A stretch of 64,000 nt of DNA from Escherichia virus TH32: the sequence record MT446405.1; one strand, written 5' to 3'. The notes beneath the pieces are model-generated. The model did no database searches, was not told the origin of the DNA, and saw only the letters and a program-made list of their open reading frames with translations. Made by a program: the position numbers and the translations under genes. Below are positions 1 to 27,581 of the stretch, piece by piece. Numbering within the stretch: the first letter of the stretch is position 1; each line of letters opens with the position of its first letter.

Positions 1-374
1 AATCGCATCGATTCGCCGATGAATGCTGCAGCCATTTCGCCGCCAGCTTGTTCCCAGTAGCCTTCACGCTCGGCGTGGGTGTCTGGGTTTATACCGTTCT
101 CCATGAGAACTGCTTCAAATACTTCTTTAAGGTTTTCCCAGTCACCAAGATGGTTGTCAATTAGTGCACCAGTGCTTAATGGGATTTCTTGTCCCACGTC
201 AAGCTCGACTTTTGCAAAGCTCAACACTTCCATCGTATACTCTGAACGAAAAGCAGGGTCTTTCGACATTGCAAATTCTACGAATCGACGCTGAATATTC
301 CAGCCTTCCATCGCAGTCATTTTGCTGATTTTAATTTCTACTGTACGACCAGTTTGTTTGTTGGTGATCTTCAT
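1..374 (-). CDS. Partial CDS (N-terminal part; gene continues beyond window start), hypothetical tail-region protein
   Basis: Minus-strand ATG at 374 preceded by GGAA-type RBS; open frame runs off the window edge, so it is absent from the complete-ORF track. Lies in the tail gene block. Confidence 0.45.
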   Translation of the reverse strand, partial: MKITNKQTGRTVEIKISKMTAMEGWNIQRRFVEFAMSKDPAFRSEYTMEVLSFAKVELDVGQEIPLSTGALIDNHLGDWENLKEVFEAVLMENGINPDTHAEREGYWEQAGGEMAAAFIGESMR

Positions 375-375
375 T

Positions 376-936
376 TTATATTCCTACTGTTGATTTTATT
401 TTATTATATAACGAACTCACAGTCGTAGTCAAACTGACTGGTTCTTTAATGGCAACACCATTTGATGATTCGTCTGCAGATTGTTTAGGGTCGAAGCTTC
501 CTTGAATGCTAAATGACGTTTGCTCGAAAGTTATTACTATTGAGACTCCATTCAAGTTTTCTTCTGACTGGGTTATTTCAACGTCGGACATCGACATTTT
601 ACTGGCAATGATGCTTCGAGAAGTTATTGAAAATGTGACTTCGTCATCATCAAATGAATTTATGATATTTTCAATTGTAGACTGGTCATTGCAAATTACG
701 TTTAACGCCATATGGGCTGGCATTACAACCTTTGCCGCCTGTAAATTGCTTACTGATGACGTGCTTGATACTTCGACAACCTGCATGGCTGTACCAGCAA
801 GAGGGAATTGAGTTGTTTCTGCTGGGGATGTTATTTCTGCAGAAACAGGTGAAAGCCTTGTCCAGACAGGAAGGCCTGTTGACTCATTCGTTATGGTCAA
901 AGATTGACCAGAAAGCAGAATCGAAACGAAGTCCAT
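376..936 (-). CDS. Hypothetical virion (tail-region) protein
   Basis: 186-aa ORF, contiguous with the minus-strand structural operon; start abuts the stop of the next gene. Confidence 0.45.
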   Translation of the reverse strand: MDFVSILLSGQSLTITNESTGLPVWTRLSPVSAEITSPAETTQFPLAGTAMQVVEVSSTSSVSNLQAAKVVMPAHMALNVICNDQSTIENIINSFDDDEVTFSITSRSIIASKMSMSDVEITQSEENLNGVSIVITFEQTSFSIQGSFDPKQSADESSNGVAIKEPVSLTTTVSSLYNKIKSTVGI

Positions 937-1469
937 CAGAACATCCCCTTGATACCATTCATCACCTTTGTAGCGACGCCAGTGACGCTGGCAGAAGTTT
1001 CTTTTATGTATGCAATGCCGCGCTCTATTACTGTTGAGTCGCCTGCCTGCGCTGTTTGAATAGACACATCCTGCTGTGTTAATATCTCATGGAAGACCAA
1101 TTGTATGGGCTGAGACGTTATATTGTCAGCGTCCTGGCTGAAGTTGTTATTTTGCAGCACCATACGTTCGAATATTAGACCACGGGAATTAATTGTGTAT
1201 ATAGTCGACCTGTTTTGCAACATCTTAGCTATTGCATCTGATGCGCTTTTCGTCTGAGCTATCACGGTGACAGTGAGTATTCGCGGCATCTTTACTCTGC
1301 CATCGACAATATAGCTGCCGTCTTCCCTTTGGTTTTTGAATATCTTCGCTTGGAGTCTTATTTTGACGTTGACTATGGCCCATCCAAGCGTGGATACTTC
1401 TCCAAGGTTGAAGCTCTTTATCGTGAAGCTTCTGTTTGATAGACTATATGACAGTAAATCGATAGCCAT
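936..1469 (-). CDS. Hypothetical virion (tail-region) protein
   Basis: 177-aa ORF in the tightly packed minus-strand structural operon; start/stop overlap with neighbours. Confidence 0.45.
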   Translation of the reverse strand: MAIDLLSYSLSNRSFTIKSFNLGEVSTLGWAIVNVKIRLQAKIFKNQREDGSYIVDGRVKMPRILTVTVIAQTKSASDAIAKMLQNRSTIYTINSRGLIFERMVLQNNNFSQDADNITSQPIQLVFHEILTQQDVSIQTAQAGDSTVIERGIAYIKETSASVTGVATKVMNGIKGMF

Positions 1470-1966
1470 TAAATGGACCCCAATATGCTCTGCACCACGC
1501 CCTTGGCAATTTGAGACGTGCTCTGTGCGCCACCGTAGCTGGCAAACACAAATGTGTATCGGTTTGTCTTGCGACGGCCTGATTGCTCTATGGAGTCACC
1601 AAGCGGACCGCTGATTATCGTTCCGTTAGAGAATGCCACCCTTCCACCGTCAGGATATGTAATGAGCATCGATGTCACATCCTGAATTGGCAACCACTTG
1701 AATCCACCTTTACGGGCAGATAATAAAAGCTTAAGATTTATGTCGTCTTCAGTGTTTGGAATGACCGCAATGGATACGCGAACGACGGCGGCTTTGTCGT
1801 ATATGCAAATGCCGCCGTCGTAAGTAAGTTGATAACCTACTGATTCAACTTCCTCAATAATTAGCGAATCCTGGTCATCAGACAAAGAACTGATATTCAG
1901 CCCAACAGGAAAAGATTGAAGAGCGACAATTCTAATGCTTGTGCCAAATCCACTAATATTGACCAT
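1469..1966 (-). CDS. Tail tube-like protein, paralog of 2917..3384
   Basis: N-terminus MVNISGFGTSIRIVA closely matches MINVSGFGASIRLVA of ORF 2917..3384; similar size (165 vs 155 aa); sits beside the putative sheath gene. Confidence 0.45.
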   Translation of the reverse strand: MVNISGFGTSIRIVALQSFPVGLNISSLSDDQDSLIIEEVESVGYQLTYDGGICIYDKAAVVRVSIAVIPNTEDDINLKLLLSARKGGFKWLPIQDVTSMLITYPDGGRVAFSNGTIISGPLGDSIEQSGRRKTNRYTFVFASYGGAQSTSQIAKGVVQSILGSI

Positions 1967-1968
1967 GT

Positions 1969-2235
1969 TTACTCCGCAGATGCAGATTTAACTGCAGCAA
2001 GAATTTCATCCTTATAAGAAAGACCCTTGATGTCAATGCCATTTTCTTTAGCATAAGACTTCAATTCTGAAACGCTCATGGAATCAAAATCTAGTTCTTG
2101 TTCAACGGATTTTTCTTCGACCTGCTCTTTGATTTCTGCAACAGGCTCAACCTTCTTATTAAACAGCTCTGATGCGTCTTCAAATTTTTCGCCAAATTTC
2201 ATGACGCCATTTGCAAAATGAATTACTTGTGCCAT
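1969..2235 (-). CDS. Hypothetical protein (acidic, possible assembly chaperone)
   Basis: 88-aa acidic ORF between tail genes; 3-nt gap to the downstream gene. Confidence 0.4.
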   Translation of the reverse strand: MAQVIHFANGVMKFGEKFEDASELFNKKVEPVAEIKEQVEEKSVEQELDFDSMSVSELKSYAKENGIDIKGLSYKDEILAAVKSASAE

Positions 2236-2591
2236 TATTGATTACTCACCTTTATACGTTCGCCATAAATAGTCACCACTTCTGCAGTGAATCCAAGGAT
2301 ACCGTTTTGGATGGTGACAGTCAATGAGTCGATTCCGGCAACGTCTGCTTTCTTCAGAATAGCATCTGCAATCGACTTTCGCGCACCGTCTTCGTCAACG
2401 GGCGACTTGAAAACGGTCCCCAAATAATCGACACCGTTTTCTATATCGTACAAGTCTTCACCAAGTCGCATCTGGTGCGCGGCCTTGATTACTTGCACCA
2501 TCGCTTTTTCTCCTGAAAGAATATTTAAGTTTCTTCCATCAGGCAGAAAAAGGTCATTATTTTCGTTAACTTCAATTGTTAGAGTTGTCAA
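2235..2591 (-). CDS. Hypothetical tail-region protein
   Basis: 118-aa ORF, coupled start/stop with neighbours. Confidence 0.4.
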   Translation of the reverse strand: MTTLTIEVNENNDLFLPDGRNLNILSGEKAMVQVIKAAHQMRLGEDLYDIENGVDYLGTVFKSPVDEDGARKSIADAILKKADVAGIDSLTVTIQNGILGFTAEVVTIYGERIKVSNQ

Positions 2592-2917
2592 ATTGCAAAC
2601 TCCGCTTCAGCAGTTGCCTGGAATTCAGCCAACTCAGATTCTGACATGTAATATAGATTACAGCCGCCAGAGTTAAAACTTTCATAATCAGGTACGCTGT
2701 CGAAAATGAAATTACCGTACCCAATCATGAGATACTTATAAGGCACCATTGGGATACCACCAAAACAGCGCACCCCTTGAATCAAAAGTTCACCGTTGCG
2801 GTATACGTCGGCGCACATGTGCTCGATAGCAGCAAAAATGTGCAACTGCCAATATGCACCGTCAACGTTAAAGCTGATATTCTGGTTAGGTACGCTGTCA
2901 AGTGGTATTTGATACAT
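2588..2917 (-). CDS. Hypothetical tail-region protein
   Basis: 109-aa ORF, 4-nt overlap with neighbours in the operon. Confidence 0.4.
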   Translation of the reverse strand: MYQIPLDSVPNQNISFNVDGAYWQLHIFAAIEHMCADVYRNGELLIQGVRCFGGIPMVPYKYLMIGYGNFIFDSVPDYESFNSGGCNLYYMSESELAEFQATAEAEFAI

Positions 2918-3384
2918 TATAAAATCTCTTGGTTGCTCACGCCAGTTTTGACTACGTTCTCAAACTTGAAGCGATATTGACGTGTTTTCACACGACCTTG
3001 AGACTGGATGCCAGGAATTACTGAACCAGTTGTCAAGGTGCCTTTGTTCAGCGTGATAACCATTCCAGAAGGATAAGTCAGCACAAGTGTGATCACGTCT
3101 TTTGCAGAGTTCTTACGCTTGCCTACGCGGTTTGCGGCTGCAAGAACGTCCAAGTTGACATCACTTTCAGAAGTAGGGATGATGTTCACACCTACTTCAA
3201 GCGGGTTTGCACGGTTCCATACTACTAAGTCACCGTTAAGGCCCATTGCAGCCTCAGAGATTTGCAGGTCCGGCGCGTCAATCGGATCAGCATCATCTGC
3301 AAAATCAGAAAGAGTCACACCATTCGGAAAAGTGTTTGATGCTACCAAACGAATCGAAGCGCCAAAACCGGAAACGTTAATCAT
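2917..3384 (-). CDS. Tail tube-like protein
   Basis: 155-aa ORF immediately downstream of the 512-aa putative sheath gene; shares N-terminal motif with 1469..1966. Confidence 0.45.
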   Translation of the reverse strand: MINVSGFGASIRLVASNTFPNGVTLSDFADDADPIDAPDLQISEAAMGLNGDLVVWNRANPLEVGVNIIPTSESDVNLDVLAAANRVGKRKNSAKDVITLVLTYPSGMVITLNKGTLTTGSVIPGIQSQGRVKTRQYRFKFENVVKTGVSNQEIL

Positions 3385-3431
3385 TACAGATTCCTCTCAG
3401 AGAGATGGCCGCCATTTACGGCGGCAATTAT

Positions 3432-4970
3432 TTAAATAAGAACGTCACGACCTTCAACGCGACGCACAGCATCATCTTTAGAGTAGATTAGCGTGTATGT
3501 TGCATAGTATTCGGTGCGGTTATCGGAAGTGGTTTCAGTGTCAAAATCGACAGTCAACCAATAACCGATAGTCTCAACCTGCCGCCAAGCAGTGTTGTCA
3601 CCGGAGGTTTGCGTGATGTACTGTTTCTGAATTTCCGTCAGCGCCTTACCGACAGAGATGGTGCCGTTAACCTTCGCATTGTCAACAGCAACTTGAATCA
3701 TGGCTTGGACAGTCGCTTTGCCTTCTTCGTTTGCAGGCACGCGACCAAGATTCAAGAACATGCTGAACAGCTGAGAAGTGATAGCAGATTTAAGCCACAT
3801 CTCGTTGGCATAAGTGTTCATGTCAACTGCTGCGGTAGACCCGCCCATCAGAACACCACGCTGGAAGAACGCGAGAGTTTGACCAGCTTGCTGAGTCGCA
3901 CCGATATAGTTTGCACGGTTTTGATCAGCAGTATCTGCGCGTGAATCAGTCGATACGGTTACATTTCGCGTTTCAAACTGATAATACATGTAGTTTTGAG
4001 TTGCATTTACAGTGTTATAGTTTGTCGCCGCAAGAATTTCAGCAGGTGCCTGGTCGATGTAATCATTAGCGAGGTTAGTTGCACGGATCATCATACCAAC
4101 GCCTGAGTAACCTTTCAACGCGGTATAGTATGAGCCGATGTTGGCGAATGCAGTCGAGAACAGATACATGTACATGTTGTTCTGCGAGTGAGTCCAAGCT
4201 GCAACGGCTGTGATTTCTTCCAGCGTTCGGTCTGCTCCAGCGAAAAGGAATGAGCCAAAGTTGTTGGAAATCTCCACAGATGCTGCGATGGCTTCTACCG
4301 GACTTGCTACACCCTGGCCAGCAACCGTAACGGTGCCAGTAGTCGTCCAACCAAGCGCCTGAGATGGGTCGGTCGGTTGGCCTGTGACGTTGATAGACAG
4401 GTTGCCTGCACCAGCGGTCGAAGGCGCTGCTTCCAGCGTAAACTGCTGAGTATTAGCATTCCAATACACTTCTGCATCAGCAAGTGCAGGCACCGACGTG
4501 CCACCTTCTGCTGCGAATTTAGTATTGATTGCCGTTTCCAGAAGTTCAGCAACATTTGCCAGACTTGTCGCCGCTGAAAGGTTAATTGCGTCAGTCAGGT
4601 AGTCTGTGCCATCGTAAGTGATGCTTAAGATAGCGCCAGTAAATGCTTGAAACGTAGCAAGCACTTTAGGCTCAGTATCGCCGATAACCATTGCAGGAAT
4701 CGCCGTGGATACAACGCGAGAAAAGCTGATTGAATCAGGCGAGTTGATTTGCTTGCTGATGAATCCAAAATACAGTGCTGCGCGCTTGTATTCTTCGGAA
4801 GAAAAACCAAAATATGATCCAACGGCATCAGCAGTTGAAAATTCTGCTACAATGCCTGGCGGCAGAACTGTATTAGAAGTCATGACGCGAAGCGACAGTT
4901 TGCGAACTGCAACAGCCGCGCCTGCTCCGACCCCTGATACAATTTTAATATAACGAGATTGACTGATCAC
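3432..4970 (-). CDS. Putative tail sheath protein
   Basis: 512-aa ORF directly upstream of a tube-like gene in the structural operon. Assignment is by size and position only. Confidence 0.4.
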   Translation of the reverse strand: MISQSRYIKIVSGVGAGAAVAVRKLSLRVMTSNTVLPPGIVAEFSTADAVGSYFGFSSEEYKRAALYFGFISKQINSPDSISFSRVVSTAIPAMVIGDTEPKVLATFQAFTGAILSITYDGTDYLTDAINLSAATSLANVAELLETAINTKFAAEGGTSVPALADAEVYWNANTQQFTLEAAPSTAGAGNLSINVTGQPTDPSQALGWTTTGTVTVAGQGVASPVEAIAASVEISNNFGSFLFAGADRTLEEITAVAAWTHSQNNMYMYLFSTAFANIGSYYTALKGYSGVGMMIRATNLANDYIDQAPAEILAATNYNTVNATQNYMYYQFETRNVTVSTDSRADTADQNRANYIGATQQAGQTLAFFQRGVLMGGSTAAVDMNTYANEMWLKSAITSQLFSMFLNLGRVPANEEGKATVQAMIQVAVDNAKVNGTISVGKALTEIQKQYITQTSGDNTAWRQVETIGYWLTVDFDTETTSDNRTEYYATYTLIYSKDDAVRRVEGRDVLI

Positions 4971-21663: not shown

Positions 21664-21690
21664 AAGGCGCTGAAAAGCGCCTTTACTTTA
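21664..21690 (+). terminator. Putative intrinsic terminator after the tail fibre gene
   Basis: Hairpin aaggcgc-tgaaaa-gcgcctt followed by a T-rich tail (tacttta); the T-run is weak. Confidence 0.35.
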
Positions 21691-21725
21691 TGCGCTATTA
21701 AGTTATACTCATTATACGTTAACAG

Positions 21726-22025
21726 GTGAGGTGGTTTATGAAATTCGAAGACATCGATAAGGCTCAAAAAGCAAAGGCTCTTCCAAAATATTTGATTTGC
21801 GGCATTGACCCTGCAGACAAGCGCCTTGTCTTTTTGAAAGCCGTCAAGGGTGATGAACATGGCAACGCAGTTGATTGGTGCATCCCGCTCTTTGAGACAA
21901 AGGGAGAAGCCGAACAGGCATTGTTAGAAAGCAAGATGCCTTCGCATTACAAAGTCAGGACTCAAGATGAAATTCCAACCTTGATTTTGGACAACATTAA
22001 CAGCGGAGAAGACTCTAATGGATAA
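21726..22025 (+). CDS. Hypothetical protein
   Basis: 99-aa ORF with GGTGAGG RBS. Confidence 0.4.
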   Translation: MRWFMKFEDIDKAQKAKALPKYLICGIDPADKRLVFLKAVKGDEHGNAVDWCIPLFETKGEAEQALLESKMPSHYKVRTQDEIPTLILDNINSGEDSNG

Positions 22026-22118: not shown

Positions 22119-22514
22119 ATGATCATCGATATTGAAAAGGCGCTCAAGCGCGAATTGACGCCAGGTGCGACCCCTGGCGAGGAAGCCTACTACCGACCAA
22201 AAGCGCAGCGCACCAATGAGATTCCTGTTGTTAAGCGGACAGTGAATAAGAACGGTCAGCGGTCTAGGATGCGCTCTATCCGGTCCGGTGAAAGGCTGAA
22301 AACGATTCGCCAGTGTCTACAACGTCTCGAAATCATGGGTTGTCGCGCTTATATCGACCCTGATGGAAAGGTTCTGGTGAGAATTGGCAATAGTACACAA
22401 CTACAAGACGGATTGCCATGCGGTGAATCCAGACCTATTACCAAGACCGACCGTGTGGCTACGGGTCGCGAGATTGAGGAAAGTTGGTTAGGTGCTTTCT
22501 TATTAAAATATTGA
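22119..22514 (+). CDS. Hypothetical basic protein
   Basis: Track ORF 22047..22514; start moved to the internal Met (MIIDIEK) that follows the small ORF. Confidence 0.4.
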   Translation: MIIDIEKALKRELTPGATPGEEAYYRPKAQRTNEIPVVKRTVNKNGQRSRMRSIRSGERLKTIRQCLQRLEIMGCRAYIDPDGKVLVRIGNSTQLQDGLPCGESRPITKTDRVATGREIEESWLGAFLLKY

Positions 22515-22521
22515 GGTTGAA

Positions 22522-22770
22522 ATGAATCAAAATGAATCAGTAGCATTCTTACAATGGCTGGAAGGTGTGGTGGAGTATTACGCTCCAAAAGACCGTTTCA
22601 TCTTTCAAGGCAAAAGCTTCAAGCGCAAAGGTCAAGCACAGAAAGCAGCGCGTAAGTACTGGAAGGAAGTTTATTCAGAGTTCTTTCAGCAGATGGGCAT
22701 TATCGGTGCGACCGTATCCGGCGACCCAGCACAGTTGGTATCGATTGATGAATCCAATCGTTACAATTAA
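22522..22770 (+). CDS. Hypothetical protein
   Basis: 82-aa ORF with GAGG RBS. Confidence 0.45.
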   Translation: MNQNESVAFLQWLEGVVEYYAPKDRFIFQGKSFKRKGQAQKAARKYWKEVYSEFFQQMGIIGATVSGDPAQLVSIDESNRYN

Positions 22771-22845
22771 TAAACCGATTTGAATGCCGCGCCATGCGGC
22801 TTTATTATAGTTATTGTTAATCACCCAAATATTAAAGGTAATGAT

Positions 22846-23226
22846 ATGTCAAATAAAAATGATTCTATGAGTCACACATATACTAAAGGCAGCGGCATTG
22901 CTTTTGGTTCCAGCATCAAAATTGACGCTCCACCTTGCTATTCTGATGGATTGGAAGTTGGCAACCGTGACTTGACATGGGTTTTACGTCGCCAATCCGA
23001 TTTAGAAGAGAAGTTGGAAAATATTGAGCGTTCTCTCGAAAGTTTGCGCGACCAGCTTTTTGGTTGTTCTGAAGATGATTCTAAATCTCCAGAGTATTGC
23101 GTTAATCATGGTTTGATTGATAATATGCTCGCCACAACCGCTCGATCAATTGGTAAAACTGTGTCCATTGAGTCGTTGATCAGCCAGATTGCTGATGGAT
23201 TTGGTGATGCCCATAAGAGTGAATAG
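22846..23226 (+). CDS. Hypothetical protein
   Basis: Track ORF 22780..23226; start at the internal Met with AAAGG RBS; last plus-strand gene before the ORF-free island. Confidence 0.45.
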   Translation: MSNKNDSMSHTYTKGSGIAFGSSIKIDAPPCYSDGLEVGNRDLTWVLRRQSDLEEKLENIERSLESLRDQLFGCSEDDSKSPEYCVNHGLIDNMLATTARSIGKTVSIESLISQIADGFGDAHKSE

Positions 23227-23257
23227 TGGGTGGATGTTGCTTTAACCGTGAATCGTG

Positions 23258-23285
23258 GGTCGCTGTGGCGGCCCTTTCTTTTGCC
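23258..23285 (+). terminator. Putative terminator after the plus-strand gene block
   Basis: Imperfect GC hairpin gggtcgc-tgtg-gcggccc followed by tttcttttg. Confidence 0.3.
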
Positions 23286-23924
23286 TGCCGCGCAGGAGTG
23301 TACTGCAAATTTCCTGTGGGTACAAAATAGTACGGTACTGTCCAGGACTTTTTCTTTGAAAAGTTAGTGGACCAAATGTGTAGTATTTTGATTAGTGTAC
23401 CGCAAATTCCATCAAGTACCAAAACGCACCAAAAGACCCATGCCATAAAAACCACACGAACGCAATAATCAATCGACGTTACAGTTTCCAGCGTTACAAT
23501 TCGAAAGCGAATGATTCGACGCATAATAATATGAAGCATAATGATTCGAAAGCAAATGATTGCGTGTAGGATAATATCGGTGGGGATTATTCTAGATGCA
23601 TGTAATTTCGCATGCGTACTATTTTCGGACGAAGGGTCGGCATATTCCTCGTTTTAGTTCGGAACGAAGGGAAAGTTTTGCGCCTTTATAAAACAACGAC
23701 TTACGCGACCCGCCCTAACGGTCCGATATAGGTGTCTATATAAAACAAGGACTTACGCGATGTTCTCCATTTAACGTAATACCTGTTATGCGAACTAAGA
23801 CGCATCTCGAAGAAGATTATGCGACGACGAAGGGAAGGATAAAGGAGTTTTCGCGTAGGAGCGCATCGAGATAGGGACGAAGAAAAGCCGCGACTAAGCG
23901 CGGCCTATTAGTAACGGAAGGGTA

Positions 23925-24215
23925 TTATAAGGAGACGATTTTAAAATAAGTTACTTCGCCGCCGAGTTGCGGTACAGCGATATATTCGCCGCCGATTTCG
24001 GTAATCGTATAAACGAAGCCGTTAATCGTTACGCGATAGGATACGATGTCCTCGTCGCGATACTTGTAAAGGTCGAGGAAGTTGATCGGCTCATAAATAG
24101 ACTCGATAATCGCGTCTACGTTAGAGAGATAAACGCTCTCTAAGGTTTCGCCAAATACGTTAGAGTTTTCGGAAGTTTCGACGCGAGCGGAACGGATAGC
24201 GGCTAAAGTAATCAT
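23925..24215 (-). CDS. Island paralog family member 1 (96 aa), unknown function
   Basis: AGGAG RBS; paralogous to 24850..25134 and 24324..24626 (shared SEN..VY..NVD..IE, F.LY, NG(F/Y), EIG blocks); own promoter-leader cassette. Confidence 0.55.
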   Translation of the reverse strand: MITLAAIRSARVETSENSNVFGETLESVYLSNVDAIIESIYEPINFLDLYKYRDEDIVSYRVTINGFVYTITEIGGEYIAVPQLGGEVTYFKIVSL

Positions 24216-24283
24216 AATAATCTCCTAGTTGGTCGGGCGGGTAGCGACCTATTCGCTACCTCATCCCCTCTCGATATAAAACA

Positions 24284-24320
24284 TTATAGTCTTAGTGTAC
24301 GAAGAAGTAAAGCACTTTTT
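24284..24320 (-). promoter_or_regulatory. Conserved promoter of paralog 1 (CTTTACTTCTTCGTACACT ... TATAAT)
   Basis: Minus-sense GTGCTTTACTTCTTCGTACACTAAGACTATAAT followed by the ATATCGAG leader; the same element precedes the other two paralogs. Confidence 0.5.
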
Positions 24321-24323
24321 TCG

Positions 24324-24626
24324 TTATTTTGCGATAAAATATTTATAAGCTTTATCGCCTTCTACGTCGATATACTCGACGATAATTAATGCTTCGCCGC
24401 GAGGCGTAACCGTCTCGATAAGGGTAACGGCTTCGTCGTCGGTCTTCGCGAAGCGGATGGCGCTACGTTCGGCGTATTTAATTTCGTCGAAGGAAAGGCC
24501 GACGAAGGCGACGGCGCGCGCTTTAATAATGCTCGTTTCGAGTTCCGCGTTAACGGCAGCGATAAGAGAGCGAACGGTTAAGCGGTCTTCGTCGTAAGTA
24601 AGGATGGAAGAGATTAAAGTAGTCAT
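24324..24626 (-). CDS. Island paralog family member 2 (about 100 aa), unknown function
   Basis: Track ORF 24324..24683; start placed at the internal Met MTTLISS (RBS GGAG) which aligns with the paralog N-termini; conserved promoter upstream. Confidence 0.5.
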   Translation of the reverse strand: MTTLISSILTYDEDRLTVRSLIAAVNAELETSIIKARAVAFVGLSFDEIKYAERSAIRFAKTDDEAVTLIETVTPRGEALIIVEYIDVEGDKAYKYFIAK

Positions 24627-24683
24627 AATAAAGCTCCCGATGCTAGTAGAAGGAAGGGCCATCGCCCGTCTCGATATAAACAA

Positions 24684-24725
24684 GTATACGCGAGTGTACG
24701 AAGAAGTAAAGAAAAAGATAAAATA
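24684..24725 (-). promoter_or_regulatory. Conserved promoter of paralog 2
   Basis: Minus-sense CTTTACTTCTTCGTACACTcgcgTATACT then tgtttATATCGAGACGGG. Confidence 0.45.
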
Positions 24726-24747
24726 ATTTATCGCATTTTTATCGAAA

Positions 24748-24790
24748 AAGTGCTTTACTTTTTTCTACACTATATTATAATGTACTCATA
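24748..24790 (+). promoter_or_regulatory. Conserved promoter of paralog 3 (divergent from the paralog 2 promoter)
   Basis: GTGCTTTACTTTTTTCTACACTatatTATAAT then gtactcATATCGGGACGGG. Confidence 0.5.
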
Positions 24791-24849
24791 TCGGGACGGG
24801 ATGAGTTAACGAATAGGTCGTTAACGCCTCTCCCAACTAGGAGTTTAAA

Positions 24850-25134
24850 ATGGCTATTCTTAACGTTTCTTCTATCCGTAACGCCATCGTCGAGAACTAC
24901 GGCGTAAAACAAAAATTATCCGAAGTCTACGCCGCGAACGTAGACCAAACTATCGAAGAGGGTGGGGTAACGGTCGCCGAGGCTTTTAAACTTTACGCGG
25001 CGTTACCGGAATCGGACCGCGAAGCCTTCGAAGTAAACGTTAACGGATACTTCTTCGAAGCGGTCGAAATCGGTAATATTTTACTCGTTATGGGCGAAGA
25101 AGAATTTGAGACCTTCTCCCTCGTCGAAGCGTAA
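24850..25134 (+). CDS. Island paralog family member 3 (94 aa), unknown function
   Basis: AGGAG RBS; clear paralogy to 23925..24215; leader carries a conserved hairpin. Confidence 0.55.
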   Translation: MAILNVSSIRNAIVENYGVKQKLSEVYAANVDQTIEEGGVTVAEAFKLYAALPESDREAFEVNVNGYFFEAVEIGNILLVMGEEEFETFSLVEA

Positions 25135-25214
25135 GAGAGGATTTTTAGAGCGTCGTGCGCGGCGCTTTAATAAAATTCTTTCGCGCCTAGCGCCCTAACA
25201 AATAGGAGTTTATT

Positions 25215-25841
25215 ATGGTTAGCTTAAATCGCTTTTCTACTAGCGGCGACGTTATCGCAACTAAGACCGCCGACCTCGTTGCATTTTACAATGCAAATTC
25301 CGGTTCGAAGCCGATTAAAAAGTTCGCTGACCGCCGGACCGCCGAGACTCGCGTAATCGCGCTAATCGAGTCCTTAAACGCGCTCGATGAGCCGTCCAAC
25401 GAATCGCCCATCCCAGACGCGAAGCCGCGCGAGGAAGTGTCCAGCGATGTAAAAACGCACAAGGCGCGTGCGGTCGTTAAAAAGGCCGAGCCGACCCAGG
25501 AAGAACTCGACGCGATGAGCGATGAAGAGTATGAAGCCTTCGTTAAGAGCGGCTTAAACGATAGTGCAAATTGCGTAGTGCAAAATGGAACTCCTTCCCA
25601 TCGCCGTTCGAATAGCGAAGGTATTGCAAAAAGTTGGGATAATAAGGAAGTGGCGCAAAAGCGTCTTACCCGTAACGGCGTTATGGTCGAGGGTGTAGGC
25701 GAGTTCAAATCGGTCCGCGTAGCATTCGCCGCGCTGGGCTTACCGGATAGCAAACACATTCGCTTCCGTATGAAGCTTAAGGAAGCTGGGCGCTTGAACT
25801 TCGAGTTCGGCAACAAGTCCTACACATTCCAGATTATCTAA
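25215..25841 (+). CDS. Hypothetical protein (208 aa)
   Basis: AGGAG RBS; shares the CG-rich codon style of the island; contains two ATAGTGCAAA boxes read as D-S-A-N-C. Confidence 0.45.
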   Translation: MVSLNRFSTSGDVIATKTADLVAFYNANSGSKPIKKFADRRTAETRVIALIESLNALDEPSNESPIPDAKPREEVSSDVKTHKARAVVKKAEPTQEELDAMSDEEYEAFVKSGLNDSANCVVQNGTPSHRRSNSEGIAKSWDNKEVAQKRLTRNGVMVEGVGEFKSVRVAFAALGLPDSKHIRFRMKLKEAGRLNFEFGNKSYTFQII

Positions 25842-25891
25842 TCGAATGGCGGCCCTTCGGGGTCGCTTTTCATAGTGCAAATTGGTGGCTT

Positions 25892-26155
25892 ATGAATACG
25901 CTTATTCTCATCGCTACGTTGTCCATCGGAAGTGGTCGCACCTTATCCCTTTACGACCATAGTGCAAATTGCGCTTACCCTACGCGCGTTGCGGCAATAG
26001 TTAATAGTGCAAATCGAATGCTATTCGAAACTTGTTGGCGGGTCGATAACGAGAAAGGGCGCATCGTCTTAGGTTATAGTGCGAATCTGCTGGTGGAGTC
26101 GTTCGATTGGACGGTTGAAGGTCGTAAATTGTTACGTAAGGTGACTAAAAGATGA
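25892..26155 (+). CDS. Questionable ORF overlapping the ATAGTGCAAAT boxes
   Basis: 87-aa ORF whose frame reads the boxes as xSAN; no convincing RBS; may be non-coding. Confidence 0.25.
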   Translation: MNTLILIATLSIGSGRTLSLYDHSANCAYPTRVAAIVNSANRMLFETCWRVDNEKGRIVLGYSANLLVESFDWTVEGRKLLRKVTKR

Positions 26156-26269
26156 CTTATAATAATACACTTTCTAACGCGTTTATGGTTGTAACCTTCC
26201 CCGTCGTATTACCGATGGCCCTAGAAGTGGAGAAAATGTGTTCTAGGGCCGTTTTATAGTGCAAATTGG

Positions 26270-26758
26270 CTAGTGGCGGGAGAATTGCTCGCCTTCTTTG
26301 GCCGCCTCTCCGAAATCCTTGTAGAAATCGTCCATGGAACGGCCCATTTTACTATTGCCGTTTTCATCAATCATCGTGATGCCGTAGATGATATTCAGTT
26401 CACGAATAGCATTAAGTTTGGCTGACGCCGCGACTTCTGGATCACGCACAAGCTTGACCAAATTGTGAATTGCACCTTTTACGCTCCACAAATCCTTGAG
26501 TGGCATCTCTTCCATACGCTTTTTGAAGCGCATTTTGTAGTATGGGTTGCGTTGCGCGCAAAGGATTCGCTGGCCAGTGTAGCTATCCGTTGCAACTTCC
26601 ATTCCAAATACTAGTGCAAAAGCTGCGCGCATGTCATGGCCCTGAATAACAAGGTCAATGAACTCATCGAATAAAGCCTGATTGTGCTCTGCAAATCGCG
26701 GGTCTTCAAAGTCTTCAGGCATCGCTACATAATCTTGACTCATAGTGCAAAATCCCAT
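26270..26758 (-). CDS. Hypothetical protein (162 aa)
   Basis: Minus-strand ORF with typical phage codon style; start region coincides with the ATAGTGCAAAT boxes, so the true start may be the second Met (MSQDY, at 26743). Confidence 0.45.
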   Translation of the reverse strand: MGFCTMSQDYVAMPEDFEDPRFAEHNQALFDEFIDLVIQGHDMRAAFALVFGMEVATDSYTGQRILCAQRNPYYKMRFKKRMEEMPLKDLWSVKGAIHNLVKLVRDPEVAASAKLNAIRELNIIYGITMIDENGNSKMGRSMDDFYKDFGEAAKEGEQFSRH

Positions 26759-26969
26759 AGTGCAAATTAATAGTGTGAATTATACAATGGATGGACATTA
26801 TATTCAAGTGCAGATTGATGTTCATTATGGCTATAAACGTACACAAATCACAGTGCTGAATGGATAACGGACCGTGGTGCGTGGTGTACTGTTTGATACG
26901 TATAAAAGAAATCCATCCCTTTTGCCGCTTGTTATGCAAATCAATGACTTAGCCGCTGCTGGCTGGTCG

Positions 26970-27300
26970 AAGCGTATCATGACGTATCATCCGTATTGCC
27001 GCAAGTCTTTGTTTTTACTTATATCTTACGGATAATACGTTAAATATATAAATTAACATAAGTATGAGGATGTAGAAAAAAATTAATTTAAATGATTTTA
27101 AAATGGAGTTAATTAATTTTTCAAATTATATATATAACGATGCCCAGTTTTATCCGTATCATCCGTAAGATTAATGTACAAGCCAGGCGCGGCAAGGGCT
27201 GTACACTGATACGGATAAAAAACCATGACGTATCATGACGTAAGGGTGTACCAATTTGGAAAGGATGAATCCAGGAACGGCGCGGCCTGTAGCCATGATA
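26970..27300. repeat. Second iteron/AT-rich region, homologous to 10780..11060
   Basis: cgtatcatgacgtatcatccgta (26975), AT-rich 27040-27140, ttatccgtatcatccgtaagatt (27149; near-identical to 10989-11015), gatacggataaaaa (27208), catgacgtatcatgacgta (27226). Confidence 0.7.
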
Positions 27301-27581
27301 CGCTTAATTTTTAACCGTATTTTAGGCGTATCAAATGTGTTCAAACACCAAGTTTCACGACACTAAAATTTCAATCCATAGACAATTCCTAACAAACACC
27401 ACGGACTAATAGATACGCCCTATAAAATATATTTCTAAATATTTCCGCACAATCAATAAATAAAACACAACCTCATAATCATTCCATCGCAAAACACGAC
27501 CCAAACAACAAAAGGCCGCATAAAGCGACCCATTGCACACATTCCATTCTTCAAAACACGTAAACAGTGTTCGTTTATTCA

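What the first reader, a model, noticed from the sequence alone, without database searches (positions are those of the whole stretch)
23925..25134. Triplicated small-protein family, each copy with its own conserved promoter and structured 5' leader
Three paralogous small ORFs (96, about 100 and 94 aa; two on minus, one on plus) share sequence blocks. Each is preceded by the same promoter-like element (CTTTACTT(C/T)TT ... ACACT - TATAAT/TATACT) and a leader beginning ATATCG(A/G)GA(C/G)GGG. In two copies the leader has a hairpin with an identical AUAGG loop but different stems (GUAGCGA/UCGCUAC versus GUUAACGA/UCGUUAAC), i.e. compensatory changes preserving pairing, which argues for a functional RNA structure. 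Independent, identically regulated paralogs with structured leaders are the signature of a regulated accessory module (for example an anti-defence or host-takeover family) rather than core phage genes. No known family is recognised.
Basis: seen in the sequence. Interest (0 to 1): 0.8.

Follow-up and report, generated by a model that had tools for sequence, protein, structure and literature searches.

The report
Phage early cassettes in CA/TG-free island
Three small acidic-protein genes with near-identical host-type promoters lie in the terminal repeat of an E. coli Wifcevirus phage, inside a 2-kb stretch almost completely purged of the dinucleotides CA and TG; this is probably the phage's first-expressed host-takeover module, and the purge is conserved in related phages and unexplained.

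Summary
The window is a Wifcevirus, a roughly 68-kb E. coli myophage. The three ORFs, their shared promoter and the shared leader start are real and occur nowhere else in the window. The "triplicated family" is only partly right. A and C are distant paralogs. B shares the promoter, the leader start and the first four codons, but has no detectable protein similarity to A or C and lacks the AUAGG hairpin.

The hairpin is real. Its apex (CGA-AUAGG-UCG) is invariant while the lower stem covaries, both within Wifcevirus and in a Serratia phage genus.

The context changes the picture. All three cassettes lie inside the 3.8-kb direct terminal repeat, arranged as two divergent units, like the pre-early region of T5. 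They also sit in a 1.8-kb island where CA/TG is about 3.6 per 100 nt, against 14.1 elsewhere. The depletion is equal on both strands. It removes codons such as CTG, TTG, GTG and TCA, and the proteins contain no His, Cys or Trp.

The island, the promoter block and the gene order recur in Kylevirus, Myosmarvirus and an uncultured relative. In that relative, two genes have no CA/TG at all apart from the ATG start codon.

Best reading: an immediate-early, fast-evolving host-takeover or anti-defence module. The cause of the CA/TG purge is open. No protein function could be assigned.

The parts
23351..27104 (.). Direct terminal repeat (DTR). The genome's left physical end corresponds to window 27104. 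The right physical end corresponds to window 23351.
   Evidence: In WFC, record positions 1-3784 and 68689-72472 are identical, and the repeat ends map to window 27104 and 23351. Mansfield carries a PhageTerm DTR annotation.
23600..25400 (.). Core of the CA/TG-depleted compositional island. CA/TG recovers gradually up to about 26300.
   Evidence: There are 65 CA/TG in 1801 nt, against 14.1 +/- 3.3 per 100 nt window-wide. CA/TG observed/expected is 0.35 versus 1.17, CG 2.12 versus 1.09, TA 1.20 versus 0.67. It is the only such stretch in the window.
23351..23884 (.). Non-coding, repeat-rich region at the inner DTR boundary. It contains a 45-nt repeat at 23490-23577 and a 25-nt repeat at 23684 and 23736.
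   Evidence: Families D3 and D6. No long ORF is conserved here.
23885..23906 (-). Intrinsic-terminator-like hairpin downstream of ORF A.
   Evidence: 8-bp stem, 6 GC pairs, T run. Annotated as a terminator in Mansfield and WFC.
23925..24215 (-). ORF A: 96 aa, pI 4.2, no His, Cys or Trp.
   Evidence: Orthologs found only in Wifcevirus. dN/dS is 0.11-0.52.
24216..24277 (-). Leader of A: ATATCGAGAGGGG..., the AUAGG hairpin at 24240-24260, then ACUAGGAG (Shine-Dalgarno).
24283..24312 (-). Promoter of A: CTTTACTTCTTCGTACACT block, -35 TTTACT, 17-bp spacer, -10 TATAAT, with an upstream A-tract.
24324..24626 (-). ORF B: 100 aa, pI 4.7, no His, Cys, Trp or Gln. Not detectably related to A or C.
   Evidence: dN/dS is 0.15-0.26.
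24627..24677 (-). Leader of B: ATATCGAGACGGG, a small variable 5' hairpin (GGGC/GCCC), then GGGAG (Shine-Dalgarno).
24683..24711 (-). Promoter of B: the same 19-nt block, 16-bp spacer, -10 TATACT.
24753..24781 (+). Promoter of C: CTTTACTTTTTTCTACACT, 16-bp spacer, -10 TATAAT. It is divergent from the B promoter.
24788..24849 (+). Leader of C: ATATCGGGACGGG, the AUAGG hairpin at 24805-24825, then ACUAGGAG (Shine-Dalgarno).
24850..25134 (+). ORF C: 94 aa, pI 4.05. A distant paralog of A.
25215..25841 (+). 208-aa conserved protein (phrog_4730, function unknown), downstream of C. In ECML-117 and RCIP0319 the C-type promoter and leader drive it directly.
25561..26767 (+). Array of 8 co-oriented ATAGTGCAAAT repeats in the outer part of the DTR.
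   Evidence: 8 matches versus 1.9 expected, all here. Conserved in Pantoea phage PA1 and contig L117.

Best explanation
The three cassettes are immediate-early ("pre-early") transcription units of a Wifcevirus phage, located in its direct terminal repeat.

Each cassette has:
- a strong promoter of the host sigma-70 type (-35 TTTACT, 16-17 bp spacer, -10 TATAAT or TATACT, embedded in a 19-nt block conserved far beyond what sigma-70 needs);
- a short 5' UTR starting at about AUAUCGA, with a 5'-proximal hairpin and a strong Shine-Dalgarno sequence;
- a small acidic protein of about 95-100 aa.

The units are arranged divergently (B then A to one side; C, then the 208-aa and 87-aa genes, to the other), as in the pre-early region of T5 and BF23.

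The proteins are inferred to be fast-evolving host-takeover or anti-defence effectors made before the rest of the genome is expressed. Two belong to one family (A and C); B is unrelated.

The AUAGG hairpin in the A and C leaders is an RNA element. It is inferred to stabilise the 5' end of the mRNA and/or to be bound by a protein that times translation or decay.

The whole module lies in DNA purged of CA/TG on both strands. This marks it as a segment under a special DNA-level constraint. It is inferred to be DNA that must survive in the cell during an early phase in which some CA/TG-dependent activity or defence operates.

Shown: the anatomy, the location, the conservation, the covariation and the composition. 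Inferred: the timing, the protein function, the role of the hairpin and the cause of the purge.
For: **Promoters**
- The promoter hexamers and spacing are as described, and these sites are unique in the window.
- The 19-nt block is 19/19 identical in the uncultured relative L117, whose A-like protein is only a distant homolog (profile E=1.5e-11).
- Four diverged copies occur in Pantoea phage PA1.

**Location and layout**
- The cassettes lie inside the DTR.
- The units are divergent, and a repeat-rich non-coding stretch lies at the inner repeat border. T5 and BF23 are described the same way (PMC10644984).

**Real genes**
- dN/dS is below 1, ORF lengths are conserved and Shine-Dalgarno sequences are present.

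**Accessory behaviour**
- Slots are replaced or lost while the promoter and leader are kept.

**Acidic proteins**
- pI 4.0-4.7.

**Hairpin**
- Five of 8 pairs show double changes, 98% of cells are paired, and 0 of 500 shuffles reach the observed values.
- G.U intermediates occur in 4 genomes. These pair in RNA, not in DNA.

**Biology**
- AGACC, the EcoP1 site, occurs 5 times on both strands in the island. EcoRI, EcoRV, EcoKI and EcoAI sites are absent from the DTR.
- This matches the T5 rule that restriction works only on sites in the first-entering DNA (PMC10644984).

**Island**
- It is conserved in three genera plus L117.
Against: - I found no transcript data for any Wifcevirus, so the promoters and start sites are predictions.
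- Conservation of the 19-nt block beyond the sigma-70 hexamers could mean dependence on a phage factor, and hence not immediate-early expression.
- Two-step DNA entry is unproven for a myovirus.
- Absence of the 6-bp and type I sites from 1.9-3.8 kb is expected by chance (0.1-0.4 expected).
- BF23 and T5 resist EcoPI despite sites in their first-entering DNA, so the EcoP1 correlation is weak.
- The AUAGG hairpin is missing from B, from L117 and from most PA1 leaders, so it is not essential to the cassette type.
- The Vienna z-scores of the whole leaders are unremarkable, -1.6 to -1.8.
Confidence: 0.6

Rival explanations
1. The island is first of all a cis-acting DNA element of the terminal repeat, and the small ORFs are tolerated passengers. 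It might be a zone kept free of primase start sites (E. coli DnaG uses CTG) so that the repeat stays single-stranded for concatemer formation. It might instead be a packaging, ejection-stop or replication element. On this view the promoters simply express whatever sits there.
For: - The depletion is strand-symmetric and equally strong in non-coding DNA.
- CAG/CTG is the most depleted trimer, at 0.07 of its frequency elsewhere.
- The island lies 250-2050 bp from the right physical end.
- The ORF content is interchangeable while the island persists.
- A conserved ATAGTGCAAAT array and Chi clusters flank the island, so the repeat is rich in cis elements.
Against: - All eight CA/TG-containing trimers are depleted, not only CTG.
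- In the left copy of the repeat the island is 1.7 kb from the end, so a terminal single-strand-tail model fits only one end.
- The ORFs are under purifying selection and have strong ribosome-binding sites.
- The promoters are the most conserved part, which argues that expression matters.
Confidence: 0.2
2. The cassettes are not immediate-early. The 19-nt block plus ATATCGA is the recognition site of a phage-encoded activator, sigma-like factor or repressor. The units would then be a delayed or auto-regulated class, switched on or shut off by a phage protein, as T5 A1 shuts off the pre-early genes.
For: - The block CTTTACTTCTTCGTACACT is identical in A, B and the distant relative L117. This is far more conservation than a -35 hexamer needs.
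- It keeps a CA and a TG in a region otherwise purged of them.
- The initial transcribed sequence ATATCGA is conserved across genera.
Against: - The hexamers and spacing are good sigma-70 matches, 9-10 of 12.
- No sigma-like or RNA-polymerase gene is annotated in the Bas99 parts I read (53 of 68 kb).
- A repressor site overlapping an early promoter is compatible with the main explanation, because shut-off does not exclude early expression.
Confidence: 0.15
3. The inverted repeat in the A and C leaders acts at the DNA level, as an operator for a dimeric protein or as a cruciform, and not as an RNA hairpin.
For: - It lies just downstream of the promoter, where operators are often found.
- The apical 11 nt (CGAATAGGTCG) are invariant, as a protein-contacted sequence would be.
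Against: - The arms covary instead of being conserved. A half-site operator would conserve sequence, not pairing.
- Two independent variants keep pairing only as G.U (Bas99; ECML-117, RCIP0319 and F13), which is a mismatch in DNA.
- The asymmetric loop AUAGG is conserved, unlike the spacer of a palindromic operator.
Confidence: 0.07

Closest known systems
Pre-early (first-step-transfer, FST) region in the terminal repeat of T5 and BF23 (Tequintavirus)
   Same: - Early genes lie inside a long direct terminal repeat.
- There are two inversely oriented transcription units driven by host-type promoters.
- A repeat-rich non-coding stretch lies at the inner border of the repeat.
- Most products are small proteins of unknown function.
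- The phage is broadly insensitive to RM unless sites lie in that region (PMC10644984; PMC11990801).
- T5's repeat is also compositionally distinct: CpG observed/expected is mostly 1.1-1.5 in the repeat, against 0.5-0.9 over most of the adjacent 20 kb.
   Different: - The repeat is 3.8 kb rather than 10 kb, and the phage is a myovirus rather than a siphovirus.
- There is no Pfam or PHROG annotation that would identify an A1-, A2- or dmp-like function among the six ORFs tested; no direct comparison with T5 proteins was made.
- Two-step entry is not demonstrated.
- T5 shows no comparable CA/TG purge (0.7-1.2).
T7 class I early region (promoters A1-A3, gene 0.3 ocr)
   Same: - Strong host-polymerase promoters lie at a genome end.
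- They drive a small, very acidic anti-restriction protein as the first product.
   Different: - T7's early region has normal CA/TG content.
- The T7 leaders carry RNase III sites, not an 8-bp pentaloop hairpin (from general knowledge).
Lambda-type nut boxB hairpin, and 5'-terminal stabiliser hairpins such as the ompA 5' UTR (from general knowledge)
   Same: - A short stem with a 5-nt loop lies in the leader of early phage transcripts.
- The loop is conserved and the stem is variable.
- The hairpin sits near the 5' end of the transcript.
   Different: - The loop AUAGG is not GNRA-like.
- No boxA and no N-like protein were identified.
- The transcription units are short and end at their own terminator.
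- There is no Rfam match.
Repeat-induced point mutation (RIP) signature of fungi
   Same: CpA/TpG is depleted and TpA enriched in repeated DNA (papers listed).
   Different: - Here CpG doubles and G+C content is unchanged.
- The genes stay intact and are under purifying selection.
- This is selection, not C-to-T mutational decay, and no such system is known in phages.

Membership tests
Sigma-70-type bacterial promoter | A -35-like and a -10-like hexamer separated by 16-18 bp | tested here: met
   TTTACT, then 16 or 17 bp, then TATAAT or TATACT. This is 9-10 of 12 matches at all three sites.
Sigma-70-type bacterial promoter | Transcription initiation by the host holoenzyme at the predicted site | not testable with these tools
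   I found no Wifcevirus transcriptome in the searched literature.
One paralogous protein family (A, B, C) | Significant pairwise or profile similarity among all three members | tested here: not met
   A-C gives E=1e-5 (BLASTP) and 1.6e-5 (hhalign). B versus A or C gives no alignment, with hhalign probability 0.2%. The B structure model is too poor for a fold comparison.
T5-like pre-early / first-step-transfer module | Early genes located within the direct terminal repeat, in divergent units | tested here: met
   The DTR maps to window 23351-27104. B and A are on the minus strand; C and the 208-aa and 87-aa genes are on the plus strand.
T5-like pre-early / first-step-transfer module | Two-step DNA transfer with an injection stop signal | not testable with these tools
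   Only a repeat-rich non-coding stretch at the inner border is seen.
T5-like pre-early / first-step-transfer module | Homologs of A1, A2 or dmp | tested here: inconclusive
   Pfam and PHROGs give no functionally annotated hit for the six tested DTR ORFs. A, B and C have none at all; the 208-aa and 162-aa ORFs match only families of unknown function. No direct comparison with the T5 A1, A2 or dmp sequences was made.
Ocr/ArdA-type DNA-mimic anti-restriction proteins | A small, strongly acidic protein expressed first | tested here: inconclusive
   pI is 4.0-4.7 and net charge -5 to -12. The timing of expression is unknown.
Ocr/ArdA-type DNA-mimic anti-restriction proteins | Sequence or fold similarity to Ocr or ArdA | tested here: not met
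   [not shown]
Known RNA families (Rfam 15) | A covariance-model match | tested here: not met
   No match at E<=1 in window 22500-27500.
boxB/N-type antitermination hairpin | A short hairpin with a purine-rich GNRA-like pentaloop, plus boxA and an N-like protein | tested here: not met
   A pentaloop hairpin is present, but the loop is AUAGG. No boxA-like element is seen in the alignment. An N-like protein was not searched for.

The most novel reading that the evidence does not exclude
The CA/TG-free island is a previously undescribed kind of genome segment: a "safe" first-expressed piece of phage DNA from which one dinucleotide step has been selected away on both strands. The cost is a restricted codon and amino-acid alphabet, with no His, Cys or Trp and almost no Gln or Met.

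On this reading, the purge exists because the segment must coexist with an activity that acts on CA/TG-containing DNA. That activity could be a phage early nuclease that destroys host DNA, a host defence, or a priming or recombination enzyme. This would explain how these unmodified phages degrade or outrun the host and resist restriction.

The conserved CGA-AUAGG-UCG hairpin would be a new phage regulatory RNA motif, read by a dedicated protein.
Probability: 0.3. Interest if true: 0.9.

Novelty: new variant of a known kind. Interest (0 to 1): 0.72.

Why it matters
- **An open puzzle.** Wifceviruses are reported to replicate exceptionally fast and to resist nearly all tested restriction systems, with no known protection mechanism (PMC11990801). 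The module described here is the obvious place to look for that mechanism, and it gives three or four concrete candidate genes.
- **A new kind of signature.** A 2-kb region conserved across genera in which CA and TG are nearly forbidden on both strands, even at the price of the proteins' amino-acid alphabet, was not turned up by one full-text keyword search, and I do not know of it for T5 or T7. T5 and T7 do not show it. It implies a DNA-level agent with dinucleotide specificity acting early in infection.
- **A link to T5.** For T5 the literature states that it is not clear how the phage avoids degrading its own first-entering DNA (PMC10644984). These phages may show one answer.
- **Practical uses.**
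  - The signature is easy to scan for and could flag first-entry or early modules in uncharacterised phages.
  - The promoter and leader could serve as a compact strong early expression cassette.

Tried and rejected
1. **B as a paralog of A and C.** Rejected at the sequence and profile level. A fold comparison was impossible because the B model has pLDDT 44.
2. **A two-codon mini-ORF in the leader** (AUG-AGG-UAG or AUG-AGU-UAA) that might explain the "compensatory" changes. Rejected, because the ATG is absent in EC150, kaset and ECO71P1 while the hairpin persists.
3. **RNA-level avoidance**, for example of MazF ACA sites. Rejected, because CA and UG are equally depleted in the sense strand of genes on both strands, and in non-coding DNA.
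4. **Generic avoidance of palindromic type II sites.** Rejected, because 4- and 6-bp palindromes are more frequent in the island than elsewhere (16.7 versus 12.7 per kb; TCGA, CGCG and CTAG are enriched).
5. **Mutational, RIP-like decay or a single horizontal transfer.** Unlikely, for three reasons:
   - G+C content is unchanged and dN/dS is below 1.
   - The signature is maintained through dS=0.6 of divergence.
   - The signature is present in different genes in different genera.
6. **A thymidine hypermodification pathway that spares the island.** No support. The "thymidylate synthase" is ThyX (Thy1) and the kinase is of PNKP type.
8. **afdb50 fold search.** Unavailable.
9. **EcoCFT_II recognition sequence.** I could not establish it, so the correlation with site location rests on EcoP1 alone.
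Full report
**Identity of the window.** The region 23500-26500 matches 28 phage records at 90-97% identity. All of them are Wifcevirus, roughly 68-kb E. coli or Shigella myoviruses such as WFC, Mansfield, ECML-117 and Bas98-101. In every record the three ORFs are annotated only as hypothetical proteins.

**Check of the observation.**
- The ORFs are as described: A at 23925-24215(-), B at 24324-24626(-) counted from its ATG, and C at 24850-25134(+).
- The motif CTTTACTTYTTNNTACACT has exactly three perfect matches in 64 kb, all at these sites.
- Each match sits 16-17 bp upstream of TATAAT or TATACT, and the simple sigma-70 scan picks all three up.
- ATATCGRGASGGG also occurs exactly three times, only here.
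- The A and C leaders fold into an 8-bp hairpin with loop AUAGG. The two copies differ by two compensatory pair changes, G-C to U-A and G-C to A-U.
- The B leader has a deletion at that place and carries a different small hairpin.

**Paralogy.** A and C are distant paralogs (27% identity; BLASTP E=1e-5; profile-profile E=1.6e-5). B is not detectably related to either. A and B share DNA only from the promoter through codon 4 (family D13). The family is wider than the window shows:
- The C slot of WFC holds a different 104-aa acidic protein that aligns with C at 28% identity in a multiple alignment; its direct BLASTP match to C is not significant (E=0.25).
- That WFC protein is related to a 93-aa protein of Pantoea phage PA1 (E=4e-4).
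- A profile search of 1.8 billion proteins adds one 103-aa relative, P0040.

All of these proteins are acidic. No function emerges from Pfam, PHROGs, the large sequence searches or fold comparison. dN/dS is 0.11-0.52 for A and 0.15-0.26 for B, so these are real genes.

**Context: the terminal repeat.** Mansfield carries a PhageTerm-predicted direct terminal repeat over this region. In the WFC record both copies are present and identical (3784 bp). Mapped onto the window, the repeat spans 23351-27104. The finding therefore lies inside the repeat. The layout is:
- two divergent units (B then A, ending at a terminator at 23885-23906; and C followed by a conserved 208-aa gene and an 87-aa gene);
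- a repeat-rich non-coding stretch at the inner border.

This is how the pre-early, first-step-transfer region of T5 and BF23 is described (PMC10644984).

**Accessory behaviour.** Across 15 Wifcevirus loci the promoter and leader are nearly invariant while the cargo changes:
- The C slot carries C, or the WFC protein, or nothing. In ECML-117 and RCIP0319 the same promoter and leader drive the 208-aa gene directly.
- ECO71P1 and RCIP0363 have an extra 50-aa ORF.
- The A orthologs fall to 63% identity.

**The hairpin is an RNA element.**
- Within Wifcevirus the stem shows two G.U intermediates (Bas99; and ECML-117, RCIP0319 and F13), one U-A to A-U flip with a bulge (EC150), and one A.A mismatch (kaset). 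The apex CGA-AUAGG-UCG never changes.
- The same apex on a quite different 9-bp stem (GUCGGGCGA / UCGCCCGGC) lies just after a TATAAT box in the CA/TG-free island of Serratia phage SMP (Myosmarvirus) and two related contigs.
- An IMG/VR contig has the apex on a 13-bp stem. Its homology is uncertain.
- On seven distinct sequences, five of eight pairs show changes on both sides, 98% of cells pair, and no shuffle out of 500 reaches the observed values. The caveat is that the two outgroup sequences were found by searching for the apex.
- G.U pairs argue for RNA rather than DNA.
- The hairpin is not universal. B, L117 and most PA1 leaders have other small 5' hairpins or none.
- A leader mini-ORF was considered and rejected. 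Rfam has no match.

**The compositional island.**
- From about 23600 to 25400 there are 65 CA/TG dinucleotides in 1801 nt, against 14.1 +/- 3.3 per 100 nt elsewhere. In 500-nt bins, CA/TG observed/expected is 0.23-0.48 against 1.19 +/- 0.11. CG doubles and TA rises. It is the only such stretch in the window.
- The depletion is equal for CA and TG in the sense strand of genes on both strands, and it holds in non-coding DNA. It is therefore a DNA-level constraint.
- In A, B and C the codons CTG, TTG, GTG, TCA, ACA, CCA and CAG are never used, although they make up 20-51% of their synonymous sets in the large genes. The proteins contain no His, Cys or Trp and hardly any Gln or Met.
- About half of the residual CA/TG are ATG/CAT, including start codons, and several others lie in the conserved promoter blocks.
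- The island is present in every Wifcevirus locus, in Pantoea phage PA1 (Kylevirus), in Serratia phage SMP and in the uncultured relative L117.
- In L117 the A-like and B-like genes have no CA or TG at all apart from the start ATG. That is 5 occurrences in 1127 nt, the other two lying in a promoter-like site.
- It was not seen in the fetched parts of Pbunavirus DL68 or Xanthomonas phage FoX7, nor in T7.
- T5's repeat shows raised CpG but near-normal CA/TG.
- The signature persists through dS=0.6 of divergence.

**What drives the purge?**
- Generic avoidance of palindromic restriction sites is not the answer, because palindromes are enriched.
- No DNA-modification pathway is apparent.
- The purge does more than double the number of 5-mers absent from the segment, 108 against 46 +/- 9.
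- The phenotype reported for these phages is resistance to EcoKI, EcoCFT_I, EcoRI, EcoRV and EcoCFT_II but strong sensitivity to EcoP1_I (PMC11990801). This parallels the site distribution: five AGACC sites on both strands in the island, and none of the sites I know for the other systems anywhere in the repeat. The expected counts for those other sites are below one, so this is only suggestive.
- The absoluteness of the purge in L117 points to an agent that recognises the CA/TG step itself. An early nuclease, a primase or a defence system are candidates. None could be tested here.

**Verdict.** The interpretation as a regulated accessory early module is reasonable. It is strengthened by the terminal-repeat location and by the conservation of the promoter across genera. 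The cause of the CA/TG-free island and the proteins' functions remain open. The island and the covarying AUAGG hairpin deserve experimental follow-up.

Noticed in passing
window 25561-26767 (+); L051 6121-6783; L117 2177-3131: An array of 7-8 co-oriented copies of (A)TAGTGCAAA(T) lies in the outer part of the terminal repeat. Some copies are inside ORFs, around the 87-aa gene and the small-terminase-like gene. There are 8 copies in the window against 1.9 expected, all of them here. The array is conserved in number and orientation in Pantoea phage PA1 and the uncultured relative L117. It is probably a protein-binding array, such as a packaging site or origin iterons.
   Followed up: partly
window 26089 (+); L051 5795-7367; L117 2096-3333; L058 11947-12368: Clusters of co-oriented Chi sites (GCTGGTGG) lie right next to the CA/TG-free island: 7 in PA1, 6 in L117 and 4 in Serratia phage SMP. 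The Wifcevirus repeat has only one. By analogy with the Wifcevirus end mapping, they are oriented to be read by RecBCD entering from the outer (left) genome end. This suggests protection of that end.
   Followed up: partly
window 23351-23884: The non-coding stretch at the inner border of the terminal repeat contains a 45-nt near-tandem repeat (23490-23577) and a 25-nt repeat, CTnTATAAAACAAnGACTTACGCGA (23684 and 23736). This resembles the repeat-rich border region of T5 that holds the injection stop signal.
   Followed up: no
window 27013-27242: Several inverted and direct repeats lie at and just outside the outer repeat boundary: TTTTATCCGTATCA / TGATACGGATAAAA, and CGTATCATGACGTA twice. TTATCCGTA resembles a DnaA box.
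   Followed up: no
window approx. 21680-21737 (+): A fourth promoter-like site outside the repeat has the same CTTTACTT -35 region and a TATACT -10, but a different leader. It lies upstream of the ORF starting MKFEDIDK and is conserved in all Wifcevirus loci examined.
   Followed up: no
window 25215-25841 (+); L058 10167-10670: The 208-aa protein (phrog_4730, unknown function) has homologs in Pbunavirus (295 Pseudomonas phage records) and in Serratia, Xanthomonas, Pantoea, Burkholderia and Vibrio phages. Serratia phage SMP carries a second, 168-aa paralog inside its CA/TG-free island, behind a CTTTACTT promoter.
   Followed up: partly
L050 (phage T5) 1-10219: In 1-kb bins, CpG observed/expected in T5's terminal repeat (its first-step-transfer DNA) is mostly 1.1-1.5 (one bin 0.97), against 0.5-0.9 over most of the next 20 kb. 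CA/TG is near normal. I found no description of this.
   Followed up: no
L057 (phage F13) approx. 2200-2615; L052, L055: Phage F13 has two copies of the A-type promoter and leader. One of them runs into sequence without a start codon. ECO71P1 and RCIP0363 have an extra 50-aa ORF between B and A. In kaset the A promoter carries the B-type -10 region. Together these point to frequent recombination between the cassettes.
   Followed up: no
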